Source: an uncultured Gammaproteobacteria bacterium (GTDB lineage: Bacteria > Pseudomonadota > Gammaproteobacteria > SZUA-229). From it: a DNA stretch of 64,000 nucleotides. Below, piece after piece: positions 17,384 to 45,240 of this stretch. Location of the stretch: contig CALLCZ010000052.1 of NCBI GenBank assembly GCA_937998645.1, positions 2,724-66,723 on the forward strand, given 5' to 3'. The notes beneath the pieces are model-generated. The model did not search any database, had not been told where the DNA came from, and worked only from the letters and a program-made list of their open reading frames with translations. The position numbers and the translations under genes are program-made. Numbering within the stretch: position 1 is the stretch's first letter; each line of letters starts with the position of its first letter.

Positions 17384-18517
17384 ATGTCGAAAATGAGCAA
17401 ATTCCCTAGAATTCTTTTCTTTCTATTCGGCTTTATAGCCAGCACTGCACAGGCAGATAACATCGTTACTGTCGGTGTGGCACCGCATGGTGGTTATGTC
17501 ATTCTTGGGGGTACTGTAATACCGCTCAAGGAAGTAACACTGTCTGCACAGATTCCGGGCATCGTTCAAACCCTGGCAGGTGAAGAGGGTGACAGCTTCA
17601 CTGCAGGTGCTGAACTGGTAACCATTAATGATGACGAGCTACAGGCCAAAAAGCGCGCTGCAGAAGCGCAGCTGAGTGCAGCCTACACCGCCATGCAAAA
17701 TGCGCAGGTTCAATACACCCGGGAATTGTGGAACCCGAGTATTTACAACCCACGACCGATGGGCGGCATGGCGATGCCTACCATGTTTGACTCATTCTTT
17801 GACGGCGGTCGAGGAGACTTCATGGGTAGTGGTAGTGACAAGGGTATTGAACGCCATGCGGACCTGGTGACGCAGGGTACACAGGTGCAGACTGCCCAAT
17901 CAAGAATTCAACAGGCTGAATCGGGTCTGCGAGAAATCGAAGCCAAGATTCGTGATGCCAAATCAACGGCACCGTTTGACGGTGTCATTACCGACAAGCT
18001 GGTCGAGGTGGGCGATACGGTACAGCCCGGTCAGCCACTGCTGAGATTCTCCTATTCGAAGTTTCTACGCATCCAGGCTGAAGTTCCGGCCCGACTGGTG
18101 CCAGGATTGCACAAGGACATGGTGGTGCCGGCCAGGCTTGATGTCAATAACACCAAGGTCAATGCTCGCGTAGCGCTGATTGCGCCAGAAGCGGACAGGC
18201 AGCAGCACACTATTACTGTCAAATTTGACCTTCCCGAGGGTGTGCCAGGTGGGCCCGGCATGTATGCAGAAGTCATGATTCCGGACATTAATTCACCGAC
18301 CAAGGCACTGCCGGTGATACCCAAATCGGCAATCATCAAGCGAGGAAGTTTACCGTCAGTCAGAGTGCTTGATGATGAGGGCAAACCCAAAATGCGCCTG
18401 ATACGCACAGGTATCGAGCTGGATGCAAACCACGTTATCGTGCTTTCCGGTTTGAAACCGGGTGAGCGCATACTGACATCCGAGGAAAAACCGCCGGCAA
18501 ACTGGGAGCAGCCGTAA
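17384..18517 (+). CDS. RND efflux periplasmic adaptor (membrane fusion protein, HlyD family)
   Basis: 377 aa. Signal/anchor (MSKMSKFPRILFFLFGFIASTAQA). Coiled-coil hairpin region. Lipoyl and beta-barrel regions. Immediately upstream of the RND permease. Confidence 0.85.
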   Translation: MSKMSKFPRILFFLFGFIASTAQADNIVTVGVAPHGGYVILGGTVIPLKEVTLSAQIPGIVQTLAGEEGDSFTAGAELVTINDDELQAKKRAAEAQLSAAYTAMQNAQVQYTRELWNPSIYNPRPMGGMAMPTMFDSFFDGGRGDFMGSGSDKGIERHADLVTQGTQVQTAQSRIQQAESGLREIEAKIRDAKSTAPFDGVITDKLVEVGDTVQPGQPLLRFSYSKFLRIQAEVPARLVPGLHKDMVVPARLDVNNTKVNARVALIAPEADRQQHTITVKFDLPEGVPGGPGMYAEVMIPDINSPTKALPVIPKSAIIKRGSLPSVRVLDDEGKPKMRLIRTGIELDANHVIVLSGLKPGERILTSEEKPPANWEQP

Positions 18518-18632: not shown

Positions 18633-21600
18633 ATGGCAGACGAACAGGACAAAGACAAAGACACAGGCGAGGCGCAGGCCTCATCCGAGAATACTGATAA
18701 TTCCAGCGAAGTACCCCAGGTGCCTGAGAGCACTGGCCAGGAGCATTATGATCTAGGCATAGCGGGAAATATAGCGAACAAGTTTATCAACACGCCGGTA
18801 ACACCGATGCTGTTGATTGCTGCATTACTGGTTGGTGTCATGGGCCTGATCTTCACGCCGAGGCAGGAAGACCCGAAGATCTCGGTACCGATGATCGATC
18901 TGTATGTATCCTATCCAGGTGCTTCGGTGTACCAGGTGGAGTCGCTGGTGACAGACCCGCTGGAACGCCTGATGGATGAAATACCGGGTGTACGTCATAC
19001 CTATTCTGCAACGATGCGGGGCCAGGCGATTGTCACCGTTCGCTTCTTCGTCGGTGAAGACCTCGGCGAATCCATCGTCAAGGTGCATGACAAGATCCGG
19101 TCCAATATGGACAAGATTCCACCGGATGTGTCCATGCCGCTGGTCAAACCGGTGGCAATCGATGATGTTCCAACCGTCAGCGTAACGCTCTGGTCCAAGG
19201 AGGTTGATGACAGCACGCTGCGTATCCTGGCCAATGACGTGCTACAGGAACTGGGGCAGGTCAAAAACACCGGTAAAGGCTTTGTTGTAGGCGGGCGCGC
19301 TGACCAGATAAGAGTGGAAGTCATGCCCGAGCGACTGGCAGGCTACAACCTCAGTTTGCAGCAGGTTGCCAATACCGTTACAGCTGCCAATGCGGAATCC
19401 AATGTCGGTGCAGTCGAAGCCGGCAGTACTTCGTTCTCAGTTTATTCGGGCACCTTCCTCAAGACGGCGGATTCCATCAAGCGCCTGGTGGTCGGTACAT
19501 TTAATGGCGCACCCATCTATATGCGTGATGTGGCCAATGTGTTTCACGGGCCTGAGGATGCCAAGCAGGTCTCTTATTACTATGCAGGCCCGGCATACGA
19601 AGGTGAACACAGGGCTAACGGAGATGCGGCTGTCACTATCGCCATTGCCAAAAAAGAAGATACCAACGGTGTAACGGTATCAAAAGCAGTTCTGAAAAAA
19701 ATTGATTCGCTGAAAGGCCGGCTTATTCCGGACAATGTTCACGTAGAAGTTACACGCGATTACGGCAAGACGGCCAACGACAAGGTCAATGAGCTGTTGA
19801 TGGCCATGTTCGAGGCGGCCCTGATCGTGTCTGTTCTGTGCCTGATTGGCCTGGGTGCCCGCGCCGCCTTTGTTGTTATCACGGTCATTCCGGTGGTGAT
19901 TCTGCTGACAATATGGTGGGCGATGATGGTGGATTACACCATTGACCGCGTCAGCCTGTTCGCCCTGATTTTCTCCATTGGTATCCTGGTCGATGATGCC
20001 ACCGTGGTGGTGGAAAACATCTTCCGGCACTGGCTGGTCAAGGGACGAACCACCATCACCGACGCGGTCGACGCGGTGCGTGAGGTCGGCAATCCGACCA
20101 TACTGGCGACTTTTACCATTATTGCCGCACTGCTACCGATGGGCTGGGTCAGCGGTCTGATGGGTCCCTATATGCGCCCGATCCCGGTACTGGGTTCATC
20201 GGCCATGTTCTTCTCGCTGGTTGCCGCCTTTATCTTTACGCCCTGGTTCGCAATGAAAGTACGGCCCAAGATGGCGGCGCTGGAAGCGGCAGAAAGGCGC
20301 GAACAACGCACCCATAAAGTCATCGGCAAATTTTACCGCCCGCTAATCATGCCGCTGGTTAACAGCCGCAAGCTCGGCATACTCTTCCTGGTTAGCATTA
20401 TTGGTATAACCGCGGCGACCTGTCTGCTGTTCTATCCGACGCAGTGGGTGCCGGTGAAGATGCTGCCATTCGACAACAAGCCCGAGTTCAGTGTCATTAT
20501 CAACATGCCGGAAGGTACCGCGATGCCGGTCACTGCCAATGTTGCGCACGAACTCGCGGAAGCGGTAAAAGCCATTCCCGAAGTGACGGCCGTGCAATCC
20601 TATGCCGGTACTGCACAGCCTTTCAACTTCAATGGCATGGTGCGTCATTACTACTTGCGCAGCAGGCCATGGGAAGGTGACCTGCTGGTGTTGCTGAAAG
20701 ATAAGAATGAGCGTGAACGGGGCAGCCATGCGATTGCGGTAGAAGCGCGTTCGATTCTCAAGCCGATAGCAGACAGACTGGGCGCAAAAATCGCGGTTGT
20801 AGAAATGCCGCCGGGTCCGCCCGTGCTGCAAACCATGGTTACCGAGATCCATGGGCCTGATGAAGAGACGCGGCGTGAAGTTGCAAGCAAGATGACCGAG
20901 TTCTTTGAACAGGCTGAAGGCGTTGTCGATGTCGATAATTACATGGCCGAACCATCCAATTACTGGCGTTTCGAGATCAATGTCGACAAGGCGGCCCGTC
21001 GAGGTATTTCGGTTGAAAGCATCAACGGTACGCTGGCGATGGCCATGGGTGGCTATCGCCTCGGTGATGTCAAGCTCGCTTCAGTGATAGAACCTACCTT
21101 TATTGTTATCCAGGTACCGCTGGCGACCCGTTCGCAGGTTAGCCAGTTGAGCAACCTGCCGGTCGTGAGTGCTTCCGGCACCGCAGTACCCCTGGGTGAA
21201 CTGGGTGATTTTGTGCTGCAGCAGGAAGAGCCCGTCATCTATCACAAGGACTTGCGTGCCATTGAATACGTAGTTGGAGAAATGGAAGGTCGCCTGGGTG
21301 CGCCGATATACGGCATGTTCAATGTTGAGGCTTTCACCGATGAATACACCACGCCTGACGGTGTAATCATGCAGGGCATGCCGATGAATCTTATCGGACC
21401 ACCGAGTGACGACGAAAAGTCCGGCTTCGAATGGACCGGTGAATGGACTGTGACTTTCGAAACCTTCCGCGACATGGGCATTGCGTTCATGGCTGCGCTG
21501 GTGTTGATCTACGGTCTGATCGTGTATGAGTTCCGTGATTTTGCGATCGCGGGGCTGATTATGTCACCGATTCCCGTCACCATGATCGGTATTGTTCCGG

Positions 21601-22637
21601 GACATTGGATCATGGGTGCAGAGTTCACAGCGACTTCGATGATCGGCATGATCGCACTGGGCGGGATTATCGTGCGGCAATCCATCCTGATTGTGGAATT
21701 CGTCAAGATCGAGGTCGCTAAAGGCCGTCCGGTCAGGGAAGCTGCAGTCGCGGGCGCCGAAATACGTATGCGCCCGATCATGATTACTTCGCTGACACTG
21801 ATGGCTGGTGCATGGGCCATTATCTTTGACCCGATTTTCCAGGGCATGGCAGTGAGCCTGTTGTTTGGTGCCGGCGTTGCCACCCTGATGGCAGTAATCA
21901 TTATCCCTCTTGGCTGTATCAGTTTGCGTAAACGCTTCTACATGGAGACGGCAGCAGATTCTGCCGAGATGGTACTGAGCCCTAAATATGCAGAGATCGA
22001 AGGCGAAGACGCCGAGGTGGCGGCGGCTGCTGAAGAAGCCGTGCAGGAATACAGGACACCGCTTTGGATGCGGCTCTATAGCGGCATCATTGGTCTGTTT
22101 GGCTGGATTTTCCTTATCCTGAACTCGGTTTTCATCTTGTTGAAGATGGCGTTTGGCTTTGTGCTGGGGAAATTTGGCGGCTCTGATGAACCTCCACCAC
22201 CACCGCCGGCCGCATCGCCGCCGTCGAGTCCACCGCCGTCTTCGAGTCCGCCGTCTCCAGGCGGGGATGATTCTGCCGCTGCGGAACAGTCATCATCGGA
22301 GCAGGCTGCACCTGAATCCGAGGCTGAAGACGAAGCGAATATAACGGCGGAGCAGGAAAAGGCAGCCACAACAGACAAGCCCACTGTTAAGAAAAAAGCG
22401 GCCAGTACGGTGAAAAGAGCGCCTGAGAAAAAGGCAGACAAGAAGAAGACAGACAAGAAAAAGGCGGAGTCAGCAAAAGCAGCATCTTCAGCAAAAAAAG
22501 CGGAGTCGGATGATGATTCTGTAGCAGCCACAGATGCTAAGACGGTAAAGAAAACCGCGGCGGCCAAAAAGGCGCCTTCGAAGAAAACCTCACCAAGCGG
22601 CAGGCGCGGTATTAGACTGAAAGTTGATACTGACTAG
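18633..22637 (+). CDS. RND efflux transporter permease (AcrB/CusA superfamily) with an unusual ~230-aa low-complexity C-terminal tail
   Basis: 1334 aa. 12-TM RND core (IAALLVGVMG..., DDATVVVENIFRH, duplicated halves). After the core comes an extra hydrophobic segment (LWMRLYSGIIGLFGWIFLILNSVFILLKMAFGFVLG). This is followed by a Pro/Ser run (PPPPPAASPPSSPPPSSSPPSP), an acidic block and a Lys/Ala-rich histone-H1-like block (KKAASTVKRAPEKKADKKKTDKKKAESAKAASSAKK...). Confidence 0.9.
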   Translation: MADEQDKDKDTGEAQASSENTDNSSEVPQVPESTGQEHYDLGIAGNIANKFINTPVTPMLLIAALLVGVMGLIFTPRQEDPKISVPMIDLYVSYPGASVYQVESLVTDPLERLMDEIPGVRHTYSATMRGQAIVTVRFFVGEDLGESIVKVHDKIRSNMDKIPPDVSMPLVKPVAIDDVPTVSVTLWSKEVDDSTLRILANDVLQELGQVKNTGKGFVVGGRADQIRVEVMPERLAGYNLSLQQVANTVTAANAESNVGAVEAGSTSFSVYSGTFLKTADSIKRLVVGTFNGAPIYMRDVANVFHGPEDAKQVSYYYAGPAYEGEHRANGDAAVTIAIAKKEDTNGVTVSKAVLKKIDSLKGRLIPDNVHVEVTRDYGKTANDKVNELLMAMFEAALIVSVLCLIGLGARAAFVVITVIPVVILLTIWWAMMVDYTIDRVSLFALIFSIGILVDDATVVVENIFRHWLVKGRTTITDAVDAVREVGNPTILATFTIIAALLPMGWVSGLMGPYMRPIPVLGSSAMFFSLVAAFIFTPWFAMKVRPKMAALEAAERREQRTHKVIGKFYRPLIMPLVNSRKLGILFLVSIIGITAATCLLFYPTQWVPVKMLPFDNKPEFSVIINMPEGTAMPVTANVAHELAEAVKAIPEVTAVQSYAGTAQPFNFNGMVRHYYLRSRPWEGDLLVLLKDKNERERGSHAIAVEARSILKPIADRLGAKIAVVEMPPGPPVLQTMVTEIHGPDEETRREVASKMTEFFEQAEGVVDVDNYMAEPSNYWRFEINVDKAARRGISVESINGTLAMAMGGYRLGDVKLASVIEPTFIVIQVPLATRSQVSQLSNLPVVSASGTAVPLGELGDFVLQQEEPVIYHKDLRAIEYVVGEMEGRLGAPIYGMFNVEAFTDEYTTPDGVIMQGMPMNLIGPPSDDEKSGFEWTGEWTVTFETFRDMGIAFMAALVLIYGLIVYEFRDFAIAGLIMSPIPVTMIGIVPGHWIMGAEFTATSMIGMIALGGIIVRQSILIVEFVKIEVAKGRPVREAAVAGAEIRMRPIMITSLTLMAGAWAIIFDPIFQGMAVSLLFGAGVATLMAVIIIPLGCISLRKRFYMETAADSAEMVLSPKYAEIEGEDAEVAAAAEEAVQEYRTPLWMRLYSGIIGLFGWIFLILNSVFILLKMAFGFVLGKFGGSDEPPPPPPAASPPSSPPPSSSPPSPGGDDSAAAEQSSSEQAAPESEAEDEANITAEQEKAATTDKPTVKKKAASTVKRAPEKKADKKKTDKKKAESAKAASSAKKAESDDDSVAATDAKTVKKTAAAKKAPSKKTSPSGRRGIRLKVDTD

Positions 22638-22649
22638 GGGGGATATATT

Positions 22650-23183
22650 ATGCGTTTGCTGAATCATGCTTTTTCTATCATTATGGTATCGTTATTGATT
22701 CAGTCGGGAAATGTATCAGCGGCGCCGGTAATCAGTACACTACCCGATACTTTCCCCGGGTCGGGAGGACTTGCAAGGCCCCCGGCGGGCAGTCAACTGC
22801 CTCCGGCCTATCCTGAGTGGCCAGAACGGCCCGCCCGAAGAGAATTAATACCACCACCACCCGGTGGCCCCTACATGTCATCAGCCTTGTCTGACATCGA
22901 TGCTTTTCCCGCACATACCGGCGGTTTGCGCAATGAACCCAGGGGTCATCGGATGCCATCGCCTTTTTTTGGGGCGGACATGCCATGGCCGGAAACACCT
23001 GAGTATTCGCCTCCTGAAGCCTGGATACCTGAAAGTGGTGAATACCGTTTTGTGCCGGAAGAGGTTGTGCGCCAGCTGGAATCTCCAGCACCGAGCCAGC
23101 GGCAGGAATATCAAAGATATATGCCGCCTCGGGTGTATATGCCGGCACCGCCGCCAAGACCGCCTTATTACGGCTACTACTGA
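22650..23183 (+). CDS. Secreted proline-rich low-complexity protein
   Basis: 177 aa. Strong SD (GGGGGGA) upstream. Signal peptide (MRLLNHAFSIIMVSLLIQSGNVSAAP). Pro/Tyr/Glu-rich mature region ending PAPPPRPPYYGYY. Confidence 0.65.
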   Translation: MRLLNHAFSIIMVSLLIQSGNVSAAPVISTLPDTFPGSGGLARPPAGSQLPPAYPEWPERPARRELIPPPPGGPYMSSALSDIDAFPAHTGGLRNEPRGHRMPSPFFGADMPWPETPEYSPPEAWIPESGEYRFVPEEVVRQLESPAPSQRQEYQRYMPPRVYMPAPPPRPPYYGYY

Positions 23184-23245
23184 TAACGACGGTAAATATT
23201 AAAAATTAAACTAACATTAAGCTGAGGGTAAACAAACATTATTAA

Positions 23246-23773
23246 GTGATTGAAATGAAAATGGTTAGTGTCTGTATTGCATTTGTACTGGTTGTATTCC
23301 TGGATAATGCAATATCAGGTGGTTATTCACGAGGTGATGATCCGGCGCAGTATCAGGGCGCTAGCCAGATGTTGTTAGCTGAGTCGGGAGACAACCCATG
23401 GGCGCGTCCTCAACAACGGCAAGGTGCAGGTGGGCTGCCTTCATATATCACGAATCCGAAATATGCGACCAAAGAAGACGTGGAAACAAAATTGAATGAT
23501 GGAAACAAGCAACGCAGCAGCAGTGGCATGCCAGCGCAGCCGCGACAGCAGGTTCAGCCCGGATACGGGGCGCCACTGGGTTTGCCTGCAGTGCCTCAAA
23601 TCTATGCGCCATATTATCAACCTGGATATCCGGGTGCTGGCATGATGCCGGGTATGGGTATGCCTTACATGGGTAGTCCCGGATTTGGCGGCAATCCCCT
23701 GATAACTCCATACGGAAATATTTATGGCAATGTTGTGCCATATCAAGAATCACGGCCATCCTCGGGTGATTAA
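23246..23773 (+). CDS. Secreted Gly/Pro/Tyr/Met-rich low-complexity protein
   Basis: About 175 aa (GTG or nearby ATG start). Hydrophobic signal segment (MKMVSVCIAFVLVVFL). Mature N-terminus GGYSRGDDP shares the GYSRGD motif with the next gene. C-terminal half PGYGAPLGLP...PGYPGAGMMPGMGMPYMGSPGFGGNPLITPYGNIYGNVVPY. Confidence 0.6.
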   Translation: MIEMKMVSVCIAFVLVVFLDNAISGGYSRGDDPAQYQGASQMLLAESGDNPWARPQQRQGAGGLPSYITNPKYATKEDVETKLNDGNKQRSSSGMPAQPRQQVQPGYGAPLGLPAVPQIYAPYYQPGYPGAGMMPGMGMPYMGSPGFGGNPLITPYGNIYGNVVPYQESRPSSGD

Positions 23774-23896
23774 TTACGAGCATGGTAAATAGAATCTGTT
23801 GAATACACGGCGAATTCGAAAAGTATTTGACGGTATATGTTGGTATTGGATAAATCCCTCAATTCAATGCCCGTAAAAACTCTTAAGAGGGTCACA

Positions 23897-24358
23897 ATGG
23901 GTGATTCAATGAAAAAAACATTGATAATTATGGCTGCTGCGGCAGTCCTGGCAGCATCTTCATCGGCAAATGCCTGGTGGGGTGATGACGGTTACAGTCG
24001 TGGTGATGGTCGTGGCTATGGTCGCGGTTATGGCGACGGCTATGGTTATGGCGACGGTTATGGCGATGGCTATGGTGATGCTGATGGTGATTTCGATGGA
24101 GATTTCTCAATGCACATGAGCGGCAGTGGTCGTGGTTCAGGCCGTGGTCGTGGTCGTGGTGAAAATCGTTACCGTGGTCGTGGTGATTATCGTGGTGATT
24201 ATTACGGTGATTACTATGGCGACTATCGTGATGGTCGTGGCTATTATGGCGGTGGTCCGTACGGCTACAGAGGCTACGGCGCACCTTATGGTGCTCCATA
24301 CGGCGCACCATACGGTGCACCAGCTGCACCTGCAGCTCCTGCCGCACCTGCCAAGTAA
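23897..24358 (+). CDS. Secreted Gly/Tyr/Asp/Arg repeat protein (sulfur-globule-protein-like composition)
   Basis: SD AAGAGGG is 5 nt before the ATG at 23897. Signal peptide [22 protein letters not shown]. Mature sequence [33 protein letters not shown]..., then [33 protein letters not shown]..., then (APYG)x4 and (AAP)x3. The underlying DNA is a near-tandem repeat of ~15-bp units. Confidence 0.65.
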
Positions 24359-24424
24359 AAAGCAGGTTCCCTTTGACTGGCGGCCTGCTAAAGTTACTGG
24401 CTGCCAGTCTCTGGATTAAGAGGG

Positions 24425-25162
24425 ATGAATTACATTATCAAATCGATCCTGCTAGCGCTATTTGTATTGATGTCATTCAATGCGCATGCGGTCTCATTCT
24501 CGGCTGATGCCGTTCAACACCGTGGGACTGAAGTCAGCCATGCGAAAATGTTCTGGAATGACGGCAGCGTTCGATTTGAATACATGGGTCAGGGCATTCC
24601 CATGGTGCAGATTTTCGATAACAACAACAGTAAGGTGATCTGGCTTGATACTGCGAAGAAAGTCTATACAGAGCGTGAACTGACAGATCAGCAGCCTGTG
24701 CCTGTTATGGCCGGCACAGAAAAAAAATACAATCCTTGCGATGACTTCCCGGACGCTGAGTGTACTCGCCTGAAGTCAGCTGAATTAAATGAACGCCAAA
24801 CGGACAAGTGGCTGATTACTTTCAAAGAAAACGGCAGGGACCAGCACGTTTTCCAGTGGATAGACAAGAAACACCAGATGCTGGTTCGCCAGGAAAATCC
24901 GGACGGCTCTGTTCTCGAAGTGAAAATCCTTGATGATCAGGAAATAAATGACAGGCAGGTGCGCAGAGTCGACATGAATGCAATAGACTCTGATGGCAAC
25001 AGTGTTCGTGCCACTCAGTGGTATGACCCTGTACTCGATATCGTAGTTCGTCAACAGGCAGGCTATGGTGTCATAGACGAATTGCGCAACATCAAGCTTG
25101 AAACGGTCAGTGCAGAGAGTTTGCAATACCCGAAGGACACAGGACTGTCGATTCTCAGCTGA
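24425..25162 (+). CDS. Secreted/periplasmic hypothetical protein
   Basis: 245 aa. Signal peptide (MNYIIKSILLALFVLMSFNAHA). Hydrophilic beta-rich sequence with no recognisable catalytic motif. Co-directional with the flanking genes. Confidence 0.6.
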   Translation: MNYIIKSILLALFVLMSFNAHAVSFSADAVQHRGTEVSHAKMFWNDGSVRFEYMGQGIPMVQIFDNNNSKVIWLDTAKKVYTERELTDQQPVPVMAGTEKKYNPCDDFPDAECTRLKSAELNERQTDKWLITFKENGRDQHVFQWIDKKHQMLVRQENPDGSVLEVKILDDQEINDRQVRRVDMNAIDSDGNSVRATQWYDPVLDIVVRQQAGYGVIDELRNIKLETVSAESLQYPKDTGLSILS

Positions 25163-25230: not shown

Positions 25231-25869
25231 ATGTTGACCGTCATAGGTAATCTGAAAGGTGGAACAGGCAAGAGCACGGTGGCATTCAATCTGGCCGTGT
25301 GGCTGGCGCATGACAATACGGATGTACATTTGTTTGATCTCGACCCCCAGGAGACGTTGATGGATACGGCAGAAATAAGGGAAGAGGATGGCTATGAGCC
25401 TGTAATCGAGATTTCGAATGACGTCGATGAACTCGAAATGCTGGTCAACAGCAAGGGAAGCAAGAATACGACACAGCTTGTTGCGGATGTCAGCGCGACG
25501 AATATGCCGCATCTTGAAAAGGCTATTTCGCTGGCAAGGCGAGTCTTGATACCTGTACAGCCCAGTCAGGCGGATATCTGGTCGACACAGCGCTTTCTGA
25601 AGATTGTGCTGTCATGCATGGATAAAGAGAACAGGCCCGAGATACTCGCTTTCATCAATCGTGCAGACACGCACCCTGGTATTCGCGAAACCGGTGAGGC
25701 TGAAGAAGCGCTGCAGATGCTGCCAAATATTGAAGCGCTGGATGCCAGGTTGTATACACGCACGGCTTTTCGCCGTTCCTTTAGTGAGGGGCTGGCCGTC
25801 TTTGAGCAGGATCCAATGGGCAAGGCAGCTCGTGAAATGAAGAAACTGGCTAAACTACTATATAAATAA
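25231..25869 (+). CDS. Small ParA/MinD-family P-loop ATPase (orphan ParA-like)
   Basis: 212 aa. Deviant Walker A (GNLKGGTGKSTVAFNLA), Walker A' (LFDLDPQ), Walker B (VLIPVQPS). There is no parB or centromere-like partner; the downstream gene is a TM-TPR protein. Confidence 0.8.
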   Translation: MLTVIGNLKGGTGKSTVAFNLAVWLAHDNTDVHLFDLDPQETLMDTAEIREEDGYEPVIEISNDVDELEMLVNSKGSKNTTQLVADVSATNMPHLEKAISLARRVLIPVQPSQADIWSTQRFLKIVLSCMDKENRPEILAFINRADTHPGIRETGEAEEALQMLPNIEALDARLYTRTAFRRSFSEGLAVFEQDPMGKAAREMKKLAKLLYK

Positions 25870-25930
25870 CAGGCTATTCTGAAATGATCAGATTTGCCTG
25901 CTAAATGAAATACTGATTCTGGAGATGATT

Positions 25931-26788
25931 ATGAAGTTAATCAGGTGGTTGTTCAGCAACATTATACTGATAGCGTTTGTGCTGGCTTTAACCTATGCCT
26001 ACGTGTACTGGGACAACCTTACCGGTGAAGATACGCCGGCAGGCAAGGCGATCGCCTATTTATCGGTTGAGTACGATGAAGTGCGCGAGTTTCTGGACTC
26101 ATATGATTTTAACGATGATCAGGTGGTTGATGCTCGCCCGGAACCCGTTGCTGAAGCAACAGAAACCGCATCTGTTCCCCAGATGATGCCGCCACCCAGG
26201 CCCCAGGTACGCCCACCGGCGCAGCAACAGCCGGTGCCGCCGCGGGAGATGGCACAACAACCACCGGTGAGCCAGCCGTCAGTCAGCCCCCAGGTTCCAC
26301 CCGTGGTAATGATGCAGCAGCCACCCGCAGGCCAGCAGGCCTCCAGGCCTCAGGCTCCGCCCCAGGCCATGATGCAGAAACCGCCTGCAAGGCCGCCAGT
26401 ACCGCAGCCCGTGACGCCAGCGCGCGAGCCGGTGCCGGCCGGCCCGCCAGCAGCTGCAGTCGCAGACAAACCGGCTTCGAGCACGCGTGAACTCTGGATC
26501 AGTGCACGCGAGGAATACCATCGCGGCAATATTGAGGGTTCCATCAGCAACTACCAGCAAGTGATTGCGAGTTCCACTGATAACTATGATGCTTATGGCG
26601 AACTGGGCAATGTTTACCTGAGCAGAGGCAAATACAGGGAGGCTGCCAGCGCTTATTTTGATGCAGCCTCAATTCTGGTGAAACAGGGACAGGCTGGCCG
26701 TGCCAGAAGCTTGTTGCCGATGCTGGAGCGGCTGGACAGGAAGAAGGCCGAAGAATTGCATCAACTCATCAACACGGCAGGCAACTAA
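25931..26788 (+). CDS. Membrane-anchored protein with Pro/Gln-rich disordered linker and C-terminal TPR-like domain
   Basis: SD GGAGA 6 nt before ATG at 25931. N-terminal TM (LIRWLFSNIILIAFVLALTYAYVYW). About 110 aa of P/Q/V-rich low complexity (PPPRPQVRPPAQQQPVPP...). C-terminal helical repeats (YDAYGELGNVYLSRGKYREAASAYFDAASILVKQGQ). Confidence 0.6.
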   Translation: MKLIRWLFSNIILIAFVLALTYAYVYWDNLTGEDTPAGKAIAYLSVEYDEVREFLDSYDFNDDQVVDARPEPVAEATETASVPQMMPPPRPQVRPPAQQQPVPPREMAQQPPVSQPSVSPQVPPVVMMQQPPAGQQASRPQAPPQAMMQKPPARPPVPQPVTPAREPVPAGPPAAAVADKPASSTRELWISAREEYHRGNIEGSISNYQQVIASSTDNYDAYGELGNVYLSRGKYREAASAYFDAASILVKQGQAGRARSLLPMLERLDRKKAEELHQLINTAGN

Positions 26789-26805
26789 CAAAAGAGACGG
26801 CATCC

Positions 26806-27396
26806 ATGTTCTATTTTTTACGTAATATTCTCGCCATCCTAGGCCTGGTTGTGATTATCGCCGCTGGCTACGCAATGGTTAAATTTCAGCCATCGCTCGC
26901 TGTCATCAGTGAGTTTGAAGACAATGCGGTCGATGTTTTCACTGATATGGGTGTCAAACTGCTTGAAACCGGTAACATGGCTGAGGCGAGTATCTGGAAA
27001 ATACCCGTGGATGAGGGCATGACTGCTGACGAGGTTGAAGAAACAATGAAGTTTGTTGCCAATGAGCACAACTTCAAGAATGTTGGCGAAATGCCGTTAT
27101 ACAAGGAAGTGGAAGCCATGAGCGGCATGCCATATCGGTATGTTAAAATATTCATGTTTTGTAATGCACTGACTGCATCACGCATGCTGGACTACAATGA
27201 TGCATTCTCCAGCTATTTGCCTTGCCGCATTACTTTGATCGAAGACAAGGAAGGCAAGTTGTGGCTGTACACGCTGAACATGGATGGCATGATCTATGGC
27301 GGCAGGCCGCTACCGGCTGAGCTCAAGGAAGAGGCTGAAAATGTGAAAGAAATCATACTCGACATTATGAATAGAGGCGCAACCGGCGAGTTCTAA
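26806..27396 (+). CDS. Membrane-anchored DUF302-domain protein
   Basis: 196 aa. N-terminal TM (ILAILGLVVIIAAGYAMV). DUF302-like core (FMFCNALTASRML...YLPCRITLIEDKEGKLWLYTLNMD). The stop lies 1 nt before the next start. Confidence 0.65.
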   Translation: MFYFLRNILAILGLVVIIAAGYAMVKFQPSLAVISEFEDNAVDVFTDMGVKLLETGNMAEASIWKIPVDEGMTADEVEETMKFVANEHNFKNVGEMPLYKEVEAMSGMPYRYVKIFMFCNALTASRMLDYNDAFSSYLPCRITLIEDKEGKLWLYTLNMDGMIYGGRPLPAELKEEAENVKEIILDIMNRGATGEF

Positions 27397-27397
27397 T

Positions 27398-28441
27398 ATG
27401 GCTGACGAAAAGAAGCCACCAGCTTCTGGCAAAAGTACAACAGACAAACCGGCAGAAAAGCCGGCCGCTTCTGCTGCGCCCGAGAAAAAGGCGGCGCCGG
27501 CCAAGAAAGCTGAGCCCAAAAAAGCTGAGCCCAAAAAAGCTGAACCCAAAAAAGCTGAACCCAGGAAAACTGAGCCCGCGGCTACCGATGCGCTGTCTGA
27601 TACAGAAAAAAGGGCAGCAACCACCATCCTCAAGAAGAAAATGAGTGTCGAGGAGGAAAAGCGGGCGCTGGACGCCATCATCACCGGGGCTACGACGGCT
27701 GCGGACAAGAAAAAAGCGATCGATGAGCTGAAAAAACTCCACGTTGCTGATGACATCATAAAACAGAGAACACACGAAACACCCGAGGGTGTAAACGAGA
27801 TCAAGCAAAAGGCATCCAAAGCCAGGCATGCCGCTTCAGAGAAAATTCTCAGCCAGGGCTATGTTCCTGATGCCGATGTGGCCTTATCACGCCTTGCCGA
27901 TACTTTTGATAAAAGTGCACGTCGTTGGGAAATGGTGGTCTACCCGACCATGTTCGCGTTTATCCTGCTCGCAGGTTATGGCTTTTACCTGATTTACCAT
28001 TTGACGCATGATATTGCGGTGCTGTCACACAGTGTGACCCGTATGGCCACGATCGTATCCGATGCAACACCCAGGGTAACGCAGGATATGCGGGATATGT
28101 CGCAGGACATGCGCGTCATGTCTGGCGAGATACGCACCATGTCCTACCAGATGGAAACCCTGAAGCCGATGAGCAACAACATCGCCAACATGACCTACAC
28201 GATGACGAATCTGAACCGCTCCGTGTACGGTTTGCAGCGTGATGTGGGGGGCATGAATCGTACCATTTCTGGCGGTCCGTTTGGTTTTATGAAAGATGCA
28301 ATGCCATTCTCATCTGATTCATATACAAATCCGCTACCACCGGTACCAATGGGCGCGGGCCAGCACCAGCCTGTCTATATTCAGCCCATGCCTTCACCGC
28401 CGGTCATGATGGCACCGCAGACTGCGCCTAATGGAAACTGA
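27398..28441 (+). CDS. Membrane protein with N-terminal Lys/Ala/Pro/Glu tandem repeats (KKAEP x4) and C-terminal Met-rich region
   Basis: 347 aa. N-terminus ...PAKKAEPKKAEPKKAEPKKAEPRKTEP, encoded by 15-bp tandem DNA repeats. Single TM (MVVYPTMFAFILLAGYGFYLIYHL). Then Met-rich DMRDMSQDMRVMSGEIRTMSYQMETLKPMSNNIANMTYTMTNL and a Pro/Met-rich end. Confidence 0.6.
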   Translation: MADEKKPPASGKSTTDKPAEKPAASAAPEKKAAPAKKAEPKKAEPKKAEPKKAEPRKTEPAATDALSDTEKRAATTILKKKMSVEEEKRALDAIITGATTAADKKKAIDELKKLHVADDIIKQRTHETPEGVNEIKQKASKARHAASEKILSQGYVPDADVALSRLADTFDKSARRWEMVVYPTMFAFILLAGYGFYLIYHLTHDIAVLSHSVTRMATIVSDATPRVTQDMRDMSQDMRVMSGEIRTMSYQMETLKPMSNNIANMTYTMTNLNRSVYGLQRDVGGMNRTISGGPFGFMKDAMPFSSDSYTNPLPPVPMGAGQHQPVYIQPMPSPPVMMAPQTAPNGN

Positions 28442-28464
28442 TATCACCTTATCTGGAGACTTTT

Positions 28465-29973
28465 ATGCTGTCCAGGCCCGACAAATCGATTCGTGAACGA
28501 TTGGCCAAGCTGGAATCTCATCTTGAAAATGAGAATCCGCTGCTGCTTGATACGGTCATCCGTTTTAAAAAGCTGGATCGTGTTGCCTATCGCATGGGTC
28601 TGCTTAACACCAGCGACTCCTATGCAACACGCATTCCCTGGTGGCCGTTAATCTCGGTACTGGGTACATTCTCAGCAGGAAAGTCTTCATTCATCAATCA
28701 TTTTCTGGGTAAGAAACTGCAGCTGACAGGAAACCAGGCGGTTGATGACAAGTTTTCAGTGATTTGCTATTCGGCGCAGAAAGAGAGCCGGGTGCTGCCA
28801 GGCATTGCACTGGATTCGGATCCGCGCTTCCCGTTCTACCAGATGAGTGACGAAATCGACAAGGTTTCAGAAGGTGAGGGCCGGCGCATCGATGCTTATC
28901 TGCAGATGAAAACATCGGATTCCGAAAAAGTCAGCGGCAAGATTATCATTGATTCACCGGGATTCGACGCAGACGATCAGCGCAACGAAACACTGCGTTT
29001 AACCAATCACATCATCGATATTTCCGACCTGGTGCTGGTGTTCTTCGATGCGCGCCATCCCGAGCCCGGCGCCATGCATGATACGCTTGACCACCTTGTT
29101 GGCGACACCATACGGCGTAATGATTCAGAAAAATTTCTTTATATCCTGAACCAGATGGATACCGCGGCAGGAGAAGATAATCCCGAGGCCGTGGTTGCTG
29201 CATGGCAGAGAGCATTGGCACAAAAAGGCCTCACTGCAGGTCGCTTCTATGCCATCTACAACGAAGAAGTGTCTGTGCCAATTGTTGATGATACGGTCCG
29301 CAAACGATTTCAATCCAAGCGTGATGCTGATCTCACCGAAATATATGAACGTATTCACCAGGTTGAAGTGGAGCGTTCCTACAGGATTATTGGCGCGCTG
29401 GATCATATTGCCACTGATATCGAAAACGTTGTCGTACCTAAGTTGACAGAAATGATGCATCGCTGGATGAAGGCGGTGTTGATTACTGATGCCGTGATAT
29501 TTGGTGGTATTTTGGTACTGATTGCGGTAATCAGTAACTGGATGAACCTGTGGGGTTTGTTCAGTCTGGATTTCACCAATCAGGCCGTGATGTCAACGCT
29601 GAAAGTCACAGCCATATCCGTTGCGGTTATTGTCATCCATTCCAGTGTGCGAAGTTTTGTTGCCAGTCGTCTAGCGAGAAAGCTGGAAACTGAATCTCTC
29701 GCAGGCAACGTCAAGAATGCTTTCCTGAGAAATACACGCCCGATTCGCAGTCTGTTCCATCCGGCCCCCGCGGGATGGTCATCACGCTCCCGACGCATAC
29801 TGGCCGGCGTTGTCGGTGATGCCAGCCGGTTTGTGCAGACGATGAATGACAGGTTCACGAACCCGTCAGGAATTATTGAGGAGTCGCCACAGGCCGAGAT
29901 GCTTAAAGTTGTTGATGCAGAAGACGAGCCGGAAGTTGAACAGGCTAAATCGTCTGCGGATTCGGCGAACTGA
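28465..29973 (+). CDS. Membrane-anchored dynamin-like GTPase
   Basis: 502 aa. Dynamin-type P-loop GTFSAGKSSFINHFLG (compare dynamin GGQSAGKSS). G3 DSPG. G4 NQMD. C-terminal hydrophobic hairpin (AVIFGGILVLIAVISNW ... VTAISVAVIVIHSSV). Confidence 0.75.
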   Translation: MLSRPDKSIRERLAKLESHLENENPLLLDTVIRFKKLDRVAYRMGLLNTSDSYATRIPWWPLISVLGTFSAGKSSFINHFLGKKLQLTGNQAVDDKFSVICYSAQKESRVLPGIALDSDPRFPFYQMSDEIDKVSEGEGRRIDAYLQMKTSDSEKVSGKIIIDSPGFDADDQRNETLRLTNHIIDISDLVLVFFDARHPEPGAMHDTLDHLVGDTIRRNDSEKFLYILNQMDTAAGEDNPEAVVAAWQRALAQKGLTAGRFYAIYNEEVSVPIVDDTVRKRFQSKRDADLTEIYERIHQVEVERSYRIIGALDHIATDIENVVVPKLTEMMHRWMKAVLITDAVIFGGILVLIAVISNWMNLWGLFSLDFTNQAVMSTLKVTAISVAVIVIHSSVRSFVASRLARKLETESLAGNVKNAFLRNTRPIRSLFHPAPAGWSSRSRRILAGVVGDASRFVQTMNDRFTNPSGIIEESPQAEMLKVVDAEDEPEVEQAKSSADSAN

Positions 29974-44624: not shown

Positions 44625-44870
44625 TGGTTTCGCCTTGCTGGCGAGTTACTTTTCTTTGCATGCCCAAAGAAAAGTAACCAAAAGAAAAGGCATCCCGGGC
44701 GCTCGTGCTACGCATACCCTCAGCCATCTTCACTGCCAACGGGTCGTCTTGACTCGCCGTCCGGGCTCGACAAGACTCGATTGACCGTCCCTGGTCAATC
44801 GACCCTACCAGCGAAGCTGTCTTCGGCGAGCTTGACGGGAACAGGCAGTCTCCCCACGAGGTTGTCTGAA
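44625..44870 (+). repeat. Structured ~245-bp intergenic element, copy A (fimV-truA gap)
   Basis: Shares the conserved blocks tggtttcgcc, ggcgagttacttttc, aaaagtaaccaaaagaa, cttgactcgccgtccgggctcgaca(a/g)gact and gtccct with the reverse complement of 45000-45240. Contains a perfect hairpin gttacttttctttg/caaagaaaagtaac at 44645-44678. Confidence 0.75.
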
Positions 44871-44999: not shown

Positions 45000-45240
45000 T
45001 AAGCTTGACGTGCTTTATTTCTCCCGTGAAGTTTGCCGAGGCATTCGGCTTTGGTAGGGAAAATCCGACAGGGACGTCGGATTTAGTCCTGTCGAGCCCG
45101 GACGGCGAGTCAGGACGGCCCGTAGGCAAAGCCGAATGCCTCGGGAACCCGAAGGGCAAACGTTTCGGGGCGGCGTTCTTTTGGTTACTTTTCTGTCGCT
45201 GTTGACAGAAAAGTAACTCGCCCAACAGGGCGAAACCAGA
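45000..45240 (-). repeat. Structured ~245-bp intergenic element, copy B (inverted relative to copy A)
   Basis: Reverse complement aligns block by block with 44625-44870. The hairpin gttacttttctgtc/gacagaaaagtaac (45184-45217) carries compensatory changes relative to copy A. Confidence 0.75.

What the first reader, a model, noticed from the sequence alone, without database searches (positions are those of the whole stretch)
22650..24358. Tandem trio of secreted Gly/Tyr/Pro-rich low-complexity proteins resembling sulfur-globule envelope proteins
Three consecutive genes encode Sec-signal-peptide proteins of about 150-175 aa that are almost entirely low complexity. Composition of the three proteins:
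- The first is Pro-rich and ends ...PPRPPYYGYY.
- The second is PGY/PGM-rich (PGYPGAGMMPGMGMPYMGSPGFGG).
- The third is essentially (GYGD)n, (RG)n, (GDYY)n, (APYG)4 and (AAP)3.
The second and third share the mature N-terminal motif GYSRGD. Small secreted Gly/Tyr-repeat proteins of this kind are what is described for the SgpA/SgpB/SgpC envelope proteins of periplasmic sulfur globules in purple sulfur bacteria and thiotrophic symbionts, where they are compared to keratins and plant cell-wall glycine-rich proteins. If that is correct, the organism stores sulfur and the downstream ParA/dynamin genes become candidates for globule biogenesis. Alternative roles are phase-separating matrix proteins, adhesins (RGD motif) or biomineralisation scaffolds.
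Basis: partly seen in the sequence, partly recalled or inferred. Interest (0 to 1): 0.75.

Follow-up and report, generated by a model that had tools for sequence, protein, structure and literature searches.

The report
One sulfur-globule protein, two unknown neighbours
Of three neighbouring secreted repeat-rich proteins in an uncultured marine-sediment bacterium, only the third belongs to the known family that coats stored sulfur globules, while the other two are uncharacterised disordered proteins that belong to an adjacent efflux-pump gene cluster.

Summary
The three ORFs are real, Sec-exported and under purifying selection (dN/dS 0.05-0.38), and they keep their order across a clade of uncultured marine-sediment Gammaproteobacteria.

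Only the third gene, C (23909-24358), is a sulfur-globule-protein homologue. It passes the Pfam PF17228 cutoff (30-32 bits vs 26.7), whereas reversed and shuffled versions score nothing. It shares the family's positional architecture. It also has its own conserved upstream region, a conserved downstream hairpin or terminator, and codon bias typical of high expression.

A (22650-23183) and B (23255-23773) show no profile similarity to that family or to each other. They occur in only about 55 and 8 clusters among 1.84 billion representative proteins, all from uncultured bacteria. A's ribosome-binding site overlaps the stop codon of an AcrB-type RND pump gene. A and B persist in lineages where C is absent. 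They therefore belong to a conserved block: RND, A, B, D, ParA, TPR, DUF302, dynamin.

There is one ordinary sgp gene, nested beside two novel proteins of unknown role. I could not check whether the organism oxidises sulfur. No sox or dsr genes lie in the 64 kb window or the 4.7 kb beyond it. The closest named relative is a "Thiotrichales bacterium" MAG.

The parts
17384..18517 (+). HlyD-type membrane-fusion protein, first gene of the co-directional cluster
   Evidence: Pfam HlyD_3 and HlyD_D23. Syntenic in all long loci.
18633..22637 (+). AcrB/MexB-type RND permease with an extra hydrophobic helix (aa 1144-1163) and a Pro-rich then Lys/Ala-rich tail of about 170 aa
   Evidence: NCBIfam RND_permease. 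PDB hits to RND pumps over residues 48-1110. Tail and extra helix. Its TAG stop at 22635-22637 overlaps A's Shine-Dalgarno.
22650..23183 (+). Gene A: secreted Pro-rich (24% P) protein, mature 17.1 kDa, of a novel family with invariant core P.WP...PPPP.GPY.S.A...D.PW
   Evidence: ORF. SD GGGGGG at 22637-22642. Family alignment A4. dN/dS 0.23-0.33. No Pfam or NCBIfam hit. hhalign vs SGP family 6%. About 55 clusters in 1.84e9 proteins.
23255..23773 (+). Gene B: secreted, predicted-disordered G/P/Q/Y/M-rich protein, mature 16.0 kDa, of a novel family with invariant NPW..P and C-terminal GGNPL.TPYGNIYGN motifs. The ORF opens at GTG 23246.
   Evidence: 62 full-length relatives, none with a Pfam domain. 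Alignments A3 and A7. dN/dS 0.15-0.38. hhalign vs SGP 12%. AlphaFold2 with 47-sequence alignment: pLDDT 49.6, pTM 0.12. About 8 clusters.
23823..23852 (+). Three phased 10-bp direct repeats (GTATTTGACG GTATATGTTG GTATTGGATA) within a strongly conserved B-C spacer. Candidate regulator-binding or promoter region for C (inferred).
   Evidence: Spacer alignment across 9 loci. Sequence.
23909..24358 (+). Gene C: SGP-family (PF17228) sulfur-globule-type protein. 22-aa signal peptide (…SSANA|WWG); mature 127 aa, 13.4 kDa, G31 Y17 D13 R11 %. The ORF opens at 23837.
   Evidence: PF17228 at 30.0 and 31.9 bits vs cutoff 26.7. Reversed sequence and 8 shuffles give no hit. 23 of 26 relatives carry PF17228. 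Family architecture in alignment A2. dN/dS 0.05-0.23. Start and SD. Tandem repeats. Codon bias. Only SGP-like gene in the window.
24375..24409 (+). Conserved 11-bp-stem hairpin immediately after C (GACTGGCGGCC / GGCTGCCAGTC). The divergent group has a canonical intrinsic terminator at the same place.
   Evidence: 100% of cells paired in 11 sequences, 2 compensatory pairs, slid controls 12-50%. Terminators GGCGGTGCC...GGCACCGCC-TTTT in L027-L038 and L051.
24425..25162 (+). Gene D: secreted 245-aa, probably globular, mostly beta-strand protein with two conserved Cys; weak DUF4412 similarity
   Evidence: No Pfam hit at 0.01. 12 of 21 family members weakly hit PF14371 DUF4412, best E 7e-4. No PDB hit. 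Single-sequence model unusable, pLDDT 38.
25231..29973 (+). Downstream co-directional genes: ParA-like ATPase (25231-25869), membrane-anchored P/Q-rich TPR protein (25925-26788), membrane-anchored DUF302 (26806-27396), membrane protein with (AEPKK)n tail (27398-28441), dynamin-like GTPase with hydrophobic paddle (28465-29973)
   Evidence: Pfam and NCBIfam. Topology. Synteny. No defence-system match. Weak EHD2 G-domain match.

Best explanation
The region holds two different things.

(1) Gene C (23909-24358) encodes a genuine member of the sulfur globule protein family, the SgpA/SgpB type (Pfam PF17228). The proposed mechanism is inferred from the family. The precursor is exported by Sec and cleaved after ANA. 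The 13-kDa mature protein is made of Gly/Tyr/Asp/Arg repeats around a conserved GDFD..F.M.SG.GRG.GRG core, with a (Y)GAPYG-(AAP)n tail. It would self-associate into the thin protein coat that encloses periplasmic elemental-sulfur globules. C looks like its own, probably highly expressed and regulated, transcription unit. It has a conserved upstream spacer with three phased 10-bp repeats, a conserved hairpin or terminator downstream, and strong CGT/GGT codon bias.

(2) Genes A and B are not Sgp homologues. They are two unrelated, clade-restricted families of secreted proteins. B is predicted to be disordered, and A is Pro-rich and unmodelled. Both carry short invariant motifs. They belong to the upstream HlyD-RND pump operon and to the conserved block RND-A-B-D-ParA-TPR-DUF302-U347-dynamin. 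They remain there in lineages where C is absent. Their role is unknown. My best guess, which is inference, is periplasmic partners or accessory factors of that envelope module, possibly but not demonstrably acting on the same sulfur inclusions.

Shown: gene reality, export signals (by inspection), family membership of C, non-membership of A and B, gene-order and transcription-signal anatomy. Inferred: globule coating, high expression, any role of A and B.
For: C's membership:
- PF17228 at 30.0 bits (precursor) and 31.9 bits (mature) against a curated cutoff of 26.7, covering profile positions 5-89 of 93.
- The reversed sequence and 8 composition-preserving shuffles give no hit at E<=10.
- 23 of its 26 detectable relatives carry PF17228.
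- Alignment A2 shows shared positional features: AxA|WWG, a GD-F-M-SG-GRG core, APYG repeats and an APAAPA tail, with invariant D53, F66, G80, Y99 and Y123.
- Paralogues 74-77% identical sit in an unrelated context beside cbbQ/cbbO.

C's anatomy and selection:
- dN/dS is 0.05-0.23, lower than the 0.17-0.32 of globular D.
- The upstream spacer and start site are conserved.
- The hairpin after C pairs in 100% of cells with 2 compensatory pairs. Orthologues in the divergent group have canonical terminators. This matches the report that A. vinosum sgp genes are separate units with their own promoter and terminator (PMC10386293).
- Codon bias: Arg CGT 86% vs 24% background, and Gly GGT+GGC 97% vs 80%.

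A and B:
- No Pfam or NCBIfam hit.
- hhalign gives 6% and 12% against the SGP family and 1% against each other.
- Only 63 clusters among 1.84e9 representatives, all from uncultured bacteria.
- The RND stop codon overlaps A's SD.
- A and B are present and C absent in L019/L022 and L050.
- Their Arg codon usage is unlike C's.
- B is predicted disordered.

Lineage: ParC is 89% identical to that of a 2.8-Mb 'Thiotrichales bacterium' MAG, CP070838.1. The literature treats sgp genes as markers of enveloped sulfur globules in gammaproteobacterial sulfur oxidisers (PMC10386293, PMC10952691, PMC6509183).
Against: - No sox, dsr, sqr, fcc, apr or cbb genes occur in the 64-kb window or in the 4.7 kb beyond its right end. 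The rest of the genome could not be examined, so sulfur oxidation by this organism is unverified.
- The PF17228 score is only 3-5 bits above the cutoff. C's orthologues in the divergent group fall just below it at 25.7-25.9 bits.
- Mature C is strongly hydrophilic by composition (GRAVY -1.3, 24% D+R), whereas A. vinosum Sgps are described as extremely hydrophobic.
- I had no A. vinosum Sgp sequences to align directly.
- An SGP-like region also occurs fused to an OmpA domain (P0009), so the repeat module may serve other envelope roles.
- The codon bias in C may be inflated because its repeat units share codons by descent.
- The hairpin after C lacks a strong U-tract in the window's group, so read-through into D is possible.
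- Signal peptides were judged by eye.
Confidence: 0.7

Rival explanations
1. All three proteins are envelope components of periplasmic sulfur globules. C is the SgpA/B-type coat protein. A and B are lineage-specific additional Sgps, analogous to the non-homologous SgpC and SgpD of A. vinosum.
For: - All three are Sec-exported, lack Cys, are compositionally biased, and are adjacent in most lineages.
- A. vinosum globules contain Sgps that are not all alike: SgpD is described as possibly coiled-coil and largely confined to Chromatiaceae, and all four are said to share regularly spaced prolines (PMC10386293). A and B are Pro-rich.
- B's C-terminal GYGAP/PYG-type stretch resembles the SGP tail in flavour.
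- sgpD also lies next to a hydrophobe/amphiphile exporter gene.
Against: - A and B show no profile similarity to the SGP family.
- They stay in place when C is absent.
- A is coupled to the RND gene, whereas C has separate transcription signals.
- A and B lack C's codon bias.
- The lineage with four C-like genes has no A or B nearby.
- The exporter next to sgpD in A. vinosum is regulated differently from sgpD.
Confidence: 0.25
2. None of the three has to do with sulfur. They are generic periplasmic or cell-envelope structural or matrix proteins, for example spacers, phase-separating gels or scaffolds for another inclusion or mineral. The PF17228 match would then reflect a repeat module used more widely than its name implies.
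For: - No sulfur-oxidation genes lie in the 68.7 kb examined.
- The Pfam score is marginal.
- An SGP-like region is fused to an OmpA peptidoglycan-binding domain in P0009.
- C is Asp/Arg/Tyr/Gly-rich and hydrophilic, a composition also seen in phase-separating RGG/YG domains and acidic biomineralisation proteins (my own knowledge).
Against: - The match depends on residue order and covers nearly the whole profile.
- Relatives are almost all PF17228 proteins.
- The closest paralogues outside the clade sit next to RuBisCO-activase genes cbbQ/cbbO, typical of chemolithoautotrophs.
- The closest named relative is labelled Thiotrichales.
- The literature reports sgp genes in globule-forming sulfur oxidisers.
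Confidence: 0.12
3. The ORFs are artefacts of repetitive, compositionally skewed DNA and are not translated.
For: Alternative-frame and antisense ORFs of similar length exist within C (for example 24126-24419 + and 23928-24347 -), as expected for repeats built on multiples of 3 bp.
Against: - dN/dS is well below 1 in the annotated frames.
- All indels are in frame.
- Signal peptides, SD sequences and gene order are conserved down to about 50% identity of the neighbour D.
- 62 full-length B relatives exist.
Confidence: 0.01

Closest known systems
SgpA/SgpB (sulfur globule proteins CV1/CV2) of Allochromatium vinosum and the Pfam family PF17228 (SGP)
   Same: C passes the family's curated threshold. 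It has a Sec signal peptide, a small mature size (13.4 kDa against the 12.6-13 kDa quoted for SgpA/B in PMC10386293), and Gly/Tyr-rich repeats around a conserved core. It appears to be its own transcription unit with an upstream regulatory region and a downstream hairpin or terminator, as described for A. vinosum sgp genes.
   Different: C belongs to a distinct, tightly conserved subfamily rich in Asp and Arg ((GYGD)n, (RG)n, (GDYY)n) and is hydrophilic by composition. It comes from an uncultured non-phototrophic-looking sediment lineage. No experimental link to globules exists. A and B are not members.
SgpC and SgpD of A. vinosum (SgpD being the non-SgpA/B component)
   Same: They set a precedent that one globule envelope contains several Sec-exported proteins, at least one of them (SgpD) unlike SgpA/B, with regularly spaced prolines. 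sgpD lies beside a hydrophobe/amphiphile exporter gene. A and B are Pro-rich, secreted and sit beside an RND exporter.
   Different: SgpD is described as possibly coiled-coil, with two AlphaFold helices predicted at very high confidence, and is confined to Chromatiaceae. B is predicted disordered. In A. vinosum the exporter is regulated independently of sgpD.
AcrAB-type tripartite RND efflux systems
   Same: The HlyD-type adaptor and an AcrB/MexB-like permease lie directly upstream. The permease aligns over residues 48-1110.
   Different: The permease carries an extra predicted helix and a Pro-rich then Lys/Ala-rich tail of about 170 aa. It is followed in the same operon by two secreted proteins, A and B, compositionally biased and at least B disordered. 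No outer-membrane factor gene is adjacent.
Eukaryotic Gly/Tyr-rich structural proteins (keratin-associated proteins, plant glycine-rich cell-wall proteins) and RGG/YG phase-separating domains
   Same: Composition and repeat grammar of C: Gly spacers with Tyr and Arg 'stickers'. The Sgp literature itself draws the keratin and cell-wall analogy.
   Different: This is analogy only, with no homology tested or expected. The phase-separation comparison rests on my own knowledge, not on a tool result.

Membership tests
SGP (Pfam PF17228; SgpA/SgpB-type sulfur globule proteins) - gene C | Scores at or above the curated Pfam gathering threshold, beyond what composition alone gives | tested here: met
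   30.0 bits (precursor) and 31.9 bits (mature) vs 26.7. The reversed sequence and 8 shuffles give no hit at E<=10. Orthologues in the divergent group score 25.7-25.9, just below the cutoff.
SGP (PF17228) - gene C | Shared positional architecture with family members (signal peptide, WWG start, GDF..M.SG.GRG core, APYG repeats, APAAPA tail) | tested here: met
   28-sequence alignment A2 with invariant D53, F66, G80, Y99 and Y123. 23 of 26 relatives carry PF17228.
SGP (PF17228) - gene C | Sec-type cleavable signal peptide, giving periplasmic localisation | tested here: inconclusive
   [22 protein letters not shown]|WW has the n-h-c layout and an AxA site and is conserved. It was judged by inspection, as no signal-peptide predictor was available.
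SGP (PF17228) - gene C | Physical association with the envelope of sulfur globules | not testable with these tools
   Needs globule proteomics or a fluorescent fusion, as done for SgpD (PMC10386293).
SGP (PF17228) - gene C | Host genome encodes sulfide or thiosulfate oxidation and sulfur-globule consumption (sqr/fcc, sox, rDsr) | tested here: inconclusive
   None in the 64-kb window or the 4.7 kb beyond it. The closest named relative is 'Thiotrichales bacterium' CP070838.1.
SGP (PF17228) - gene C | Separate transcription unit with its own promoter and terminator, induced by reduced sulfur (A. vinosum sgp genes) | tested here: inconclusive
   Conserved upstream spacer with phased repeats, and a conserved hairpin or canonical terminator downstream. 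No transcript data, and induction is not testable.
SGP (PF17228) - genes A and B | Sequence or profile similarity to the family | tested here: not met
   No Pfam or NCBIfam hit at E<=0.01. None of 62 B relatives has a Pfam domain. hhalign probability is 6% for A and 12% for B against the SGP alignment.
SgpC / SgpD of A. vinosum - genes A and B | Homology to Alvin_1325 or Alvin_2515 | not tested
SgpD homologues are reported only in Chromatiaceae.
RND/HAE1 efflux operon - genes A and B as operon members | Co-transcription with, and conserved linkage to, the HlyD-RND genes | tested here: met
   The RND stop TAG (22635-22637) overlaps A's SD. RND-A-B order holds in every locus that reaches that far, including the most distant A relatives and loci without C. 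Co-transcription itself is inferred.

The most novel reading that the evidence does not exclude
A and B, together with the tailed RND pump, the DUF4412-like periplasmic protein D, the orphan ParA ATPase, the P/Q-rich TPR protein, membrane-anchored DUF302, the (AEPKK)n-tailed membrane protein and the dynamin-like GTPase, would form a previously undescribed envelope-spanning machine. It would build, shape or space periplasmic sulfur globules. ParA and the basic tails would position it along the nucleoid, and dynamin would remodel the cytoplasmic-membrane pocket. The Sgp coat gene C would be nested inside the machine's locus as its cargo.
Probability: 0.12. Interest if true: 0.8.

Novelty: new member of a known kind. 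Interest (0 to 1): 0.4.

Why it matters
If C is a working Sgp, it marks a widespread but uncultured coastal-sediment gammaproteobacterial clade as a sulfur-storing sulfide oxidiser. That matters for sediment sulfur-cycle budgets.

The more original point is negative.

A and B are two secreted protein families found only in uncultured bacteria. Their tight linkage to an unusual tailed RND pump and a ParA/dynamin block defines a conserved, uncharacterised envelope module. How sulfur globules are nucleated, sized and positioned is unknown for any bacterium, so a candidate gene set next to an sgp gene is a testable lead, though currently a weak one.

Tried and rejected
- Organism identification. 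Three cluster look-ups gave only 'Gammaproteobacteria/Proteobacteria bacterium'. The ParC search gave one useful name, 'Thiotrichales bacterium' CP070838.1. No paper cites that accession or the sample accessions.
- Sulfur genes. Pfam over the whole window found none. Extending 4.7 kb past the right edge found none. The contexts of three other SGP relatives (P0009, P0018, P0022) were uninformative.
- Function of D. A profile search against PDB gave nothing. The single-sequence AlphaFold model was unusable at pLDDT 38, so no fold search was run. Only a weak, recurrent DUF4412 signal appeared.
- Defence-island reading of ParA and dynamin. PADLOC gave only sub-threshold LeoA and PDC hits, and the block is vertically syntenic. 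Rejected.
- RGD-adhesin reading. The motif is not conserved. Rejected.
- The best-scoring sigma-70-like site (22624-22651) cannot serve A, because its -10 element overlaps A's start codon. Treated as chance: 15 sites found vs 14.6 expected.
- Literature link between sulfur globules and ParA, dynamin or DUF302: none found beyond a passing DUF302 'sox operon' remark.
- The RND-sgpD parallel in A. vinosum was downgraded, because that exporter is regulated independently.
Full report
OBSERVATION. The three + strand ORFs exist at the stated coordinates: A 22650-23183, B 23246-23773 and C 23837-24358. Every quoted sequence feature is present. Each begins with a hydrophobic segment ending in an AxA-like site (VSA|AP, AIS|GG, ANA|WW). 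I judged these by eye, because no signal-peptide predictor was available. At the DNA level, tandem repeats are confined to C, at 23997-24352. Mature C is very low in complexity: 2.95 bits, with G 31%, Y 17%, D 13% and R 11%. A (3.72 bits, P 24%) and B (3.80 bits, G 17%, P 14%) are only moderately biased, against 4.16 bits for the globular neighbour D. 'Almost entirely low complexity' is therefore right for C and overstated for A and B.

ARE THEY GENES? Yes. Identical copies occur in four independent metagenome assemblies. A scan with the non-repetitive neighbour D retrieved one GTDB genome and 37 metagenome loci. Mapping the window's proteins onto them shows one syntenic block: EpmB, EF-P, EpmA, HlyD, RND, A, B, C, D, ParA, TPR, DUF302, U347, dynamin, PSD, PCuAC, MTase, AroC. 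It persists down to about 50% identity of D. The ORFs between RND and D always carry signal peptides and keep their order. Nei-Gojobori dN/dS against eight relatives is 0.23-0.33 for A, 0.15-0.38 for B and 0.05-0.23 for C. D gives 0.17-0.32 and ParA 0.10-0.16. All length differences are in frame. The alternative-frame ORFs inside C are by-products of the repeats. Family alignments place the real starts at ATG 23255 for B and ATG 23909 for C. The ATG at 23897 is ATA in most relatives, and an (A/G)GGTGA Shine-Dalgarno precedes 23909.

IS C AN Sgp? C is the only one of the three with a Pfam hit: PF17228 'Sulphur globule protein', 30.0 bits against a cutoff of 26.7, covering profile positions 5-89 of 93. 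Because the composition is extreme, I scanned the mature sequence, its reverse and eight shuffles. The real sequence scored 31.9 bits, and none of the nine controls gave any hit at E<=10. The match therefore depends on residue order. 23 of the 26 relatives found by homology search carry PF17228. A 28-sequence alignment shows a common architecture. The signal peptide ends AxA and is followed by WWG. A G/Y/N/W-rich stretch follows, then a conserved GD-F-(D/N)-M-(S)G-GRG-GRG core, then (G)YGAPYG repeats, then an APAAPA(K) tail. D53, F66, G80, Y99 and Y123 are invariant. C's orthologues in the divergent half of the clade (Asn-rich variants) score 25.7-25.9 bits, just under the cutoff. A paralogue in an unrelated contig scores 32.8. 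That contig (L044) carries four C-like genes, two of them 74-77% identical to C, directly downstream of the RuBisCO-activase genes cbbQ and cbbO. This points to a chemolithoautotroph. C is the only SGP-like gene in the window. I conclude that C is a member of the family. The caveats are a small margin over the cutoff and the lack of A. vinosum reference sequences for direct alignment.

ARE A AND B Sgps? Not by homology. Neither has a Pfam or NCBIfam hit. None of the 62 full-length relatives of B has any Pfam domain. Both are real families with invariant motifs. A has P.WP(E/Q)..., PPPP.GPY(M)S.AL, D.PWP and W.PE.G. B has NPW..P and GGNPL.TPYGNIYGN, which becomes NPLYD.PAVSPWG in the divergent group. 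Profile-profile comparison gives 12% (B vs SGP), 6% (A vs SGP) and 1% (A vs B). An exhaustive phmmer search of A+B against 1.84 billion representatives found only 63 clusters at E<=1e-3, about 55 matching A and 8 matching B. Every one that could be traced comes from metagenomes or MAGs labelled no more precisely than 'Proteobacteria bacterium'. AlphaFold2 with a 47-sequence alignment predicts B to be disordered apart from its signal peptide and one short helix (pLDDT 49.6, pTM 0.12). The shared 'GYSRGD' is not conserved in relatives of either protein, so it is coincidental and the RGD-adhesin idea fails.

THE TRIO IS NOT ONE UNIT. Four observations separate C from A and B.

(i) The RND gene's TAG stop (22635-22637) overlaps A's GGGGGG Shine-Dalgarno, 7 nt before the ATG. 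A is almost certainly co-transcribed with the pump.

(ii) The most distant A-family members (E about 1e-5 to 1e-7) still sit in HlyD-RND-A-B-...-D-ParA-...-dynamin blocks. In L050 there is no SGP gene, and B's stop lies 3 nt from D's start. In L019/L022, C is cleanly absent while the C-D spacer remains. A and B are thus the constant members, and C is dispensable at this locus.

(iii) C has its own signals. The B-C spacer is highly conserved and contains three phased 10-bp direct repeats at 23823-23852. Immediately after C there is an 11-bp-stem hairpin (24375-24409) that is paired in 100% of cells across 11 sequences. It has two compensatory pairs, against 12-50% pairing when the partners are slid. 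In the divergent group the same position holds a canonical intrinsic terminator. This mirrors the description of A. vinosum sgp genes as separate units with their own promoter and terminator (PMC10386293).

(iv) C uses Arg CGT 86% of the time (background 24%) and Gly GGT+GGC 97% (background 80%), as highly expressed genes do. A and B use CGT+CGC only 29-33% of the time (background 60%). Shared descent of repeat units may inflate C's figure.

SURROUNDINGS. The permease is AcrB/MexB-like over residues 48-1110. It has an additional hydrophobic helix (1144-1163) and a tail of about 170 residues that is first Pro-rich and then Lys/Ala-rich. D is a secreted, probably beta-rich protein. 12 of 21 family members weakly match DUF4412 (best E 7e-4). 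There is no PDB match, and the single-sequence model was unusable. Downstream lie a ParA-like ATPase, an N-terminally anchored protein with a 110-residue P/Q-rich linker and TPRs, an anchored DUF302 protein, a membrane protein with an (AEPKK)n N-terminal tail resembling the RND tail, and a dynamin-like GTPase with a hydrophobic paddle. Pro-rich low-complexity segments recur throughout this block (RND tail, A, B, TPR linker, U347 C-terminus) but not in C. That again groups A and B with the block. There is no defence-system match. The literature held here does not connect sulfur globules with ParA, dynamin or RND pumps. In A. vinosum the exporter gene beside sgpD is regulated independently of it. 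In L044 the C-like genes have none of these neighbours within the 13.7 kb held for that contig, of which only 3.3 kb lies downstream.

ORGANISM AND SULFUR METABOLISM. The rest of the window is gammaproteobacterial housekeeping: parE/parC, efp, leuCDB, asd, fimV, trpFBA, accD, folC and purF. ParC is 89% identical to that of a closed 2.8-Mb MAG named 'Thiotrichales bacterium' (CP070838.1), which has the same gene order up to HlyD. No sox, dsr, sqr, fcc, apr or cbb gene lies in the window or in the 4.7 kb beyond its right end. I had no way to read the remainder of any genome of the clade. The inference 'this organism stores sulfur' therefore rests on three things: the family membership of C, the Thiotrichales label, and the literature's use of sgp genes as markers of enveloped globules (PMC10386293, PMC10952691, PMC4288042, PMC6509183). 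Evidence against includes C's hydrophilic composition (GRAVY -1.3), whereas A. vinosum Sgps are called extremely hydrophobic. An SGP-like region also occurs fused to an OmpA domain.

VERDICT. C is a new member of a known family. It probably acts as the Sec-exported, self-assembling coat protein of periplasmic sulfur globules (membership about 0.9; function in this organism about 0.7). A and B are two novel, clade-restricted secreted proteins that belong to an unusual RND-pump and ParA/dynamin gene block. B is predicted to be disordered, and A is Pro-rich and unmodelled. Their involvement with sulfur globules is possible (about 0.25) but unsupported by homology, and it is weakened by their persistence without C. 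Interest is moderate. An sgp gene in a sediment sulfur oxidiser is ordinary, but the adjacent uncharacterised module is a lead worth a transcriptomic or proteomic look.

Noticed in passing
window 21900-22637 (C-terminus of the RND permease, aa ~1100-1334): The AcrB-type permease has a 13th predicted hydrophobic helix (aa 1144-1163). It is followed by PPPPPPAASPPSSPPPSSSPPSP and then a Lys/Ala-rich tail. If the extra helix spans the membrane, the tail would be periplasmic. JGI annotates a cluster member as 'AcrB/cytoskeletal protein RodZ'. The tail is conserved in length across the clade.
   Followed up: partly
window 27398-28441 (U347): A membrane protein with an N-terminal (AEPKK)n Lys/Ala/Pro tail that cross-matches the RND tail in tblastn (39% over 91 aa). 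It also has one hydrophobic helix, Met-rich heptad-like repeats and a Pro-rich C-terminus. Basic tails next to an orphan ParA recall ParA-partner proteins (my own knowledge). Not tested.
   Followed up: partly
window 23823-23852: Three phased 10-bp direct repeats, GTATTTGACG / GTATATGTTG / GTATTGGATA, lie in a strongly conserved non-coding spacer upstream of C. They look like a response-regulator-type binding site. No regulator gene is adjacent in the window.
   Followed up: partly
window 44739-44807 (-) and 45022-45157 (+): Two matches to the TwoAYGGAY RNA family (RF01731), at 44.2 and 59.3 bits against a gathering score of 43. They lie on opposite strands in the FimV-TruA intergenic region.
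   Followed up: no
L044 9331-13035 (ERZ925375 contig, PRJEB7840): A different organism carries four SGP-family paralogues (74, 56, 41 and 77% identical to C) in one cluster directly after cbbQ-cbbO-sbcB. They are interleaved with membrane or coiled-coil proteins that have no Pfam domain. One paralogue (204 aa) has a long Pro/Arg-rich C-terminal extension.
   Followed up: partly
L046 10001-10819 (protein P0009): An SGP-like Gly/Tyr-rich N-terminal region is fused to a C-terminal OmpA peptidoglycan-binding domain. This suggests the repeat module can be tethered to the cell wall. A rhodanese gene lies 5.4 kb away.
   Followed up: no
L019/L022 8586-10001 and L050 10961-11675: Two lineages lack the SGP gene at this locus. 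L019/L022 keep the C-D spacer and have a non-coding insert of about 570 nt between A and B. L050 has B and D 3 nt apart and a sigma-54 activator gene inserted upstream of HlyD.
   Followed up: partly
window 25925-26788 (TPR protein): An N-terminal membrane anchor is followed by a linker of about 110 residues made almost entirely of Pro, Gln, Ala, Val and Met (QQPP-type repeats), then C-terminal TPRs. The linker varies in length between relatives.
   Followed up: no
window 24126-24419 (+) and 23928-24347 (-): Val-rich and His-rich ORFs of 97-139 aa lie in alternative frames of C. They are artefacts of the GGT/GAT/TAT/CGT repeat and would be easy to mis-call as genes.
   Followed up: yes
window 28465-29973 (dynamin-like GTPase): Two adjacent hydrophobic segments (aa 334-363 and 373-393) resemble the membrane-inserting paddle of bacterial dynamin-like proteins. 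The only PDB similarity is a weak G-domain match to EHD2 (E 5e-3).
   Followed up: partly
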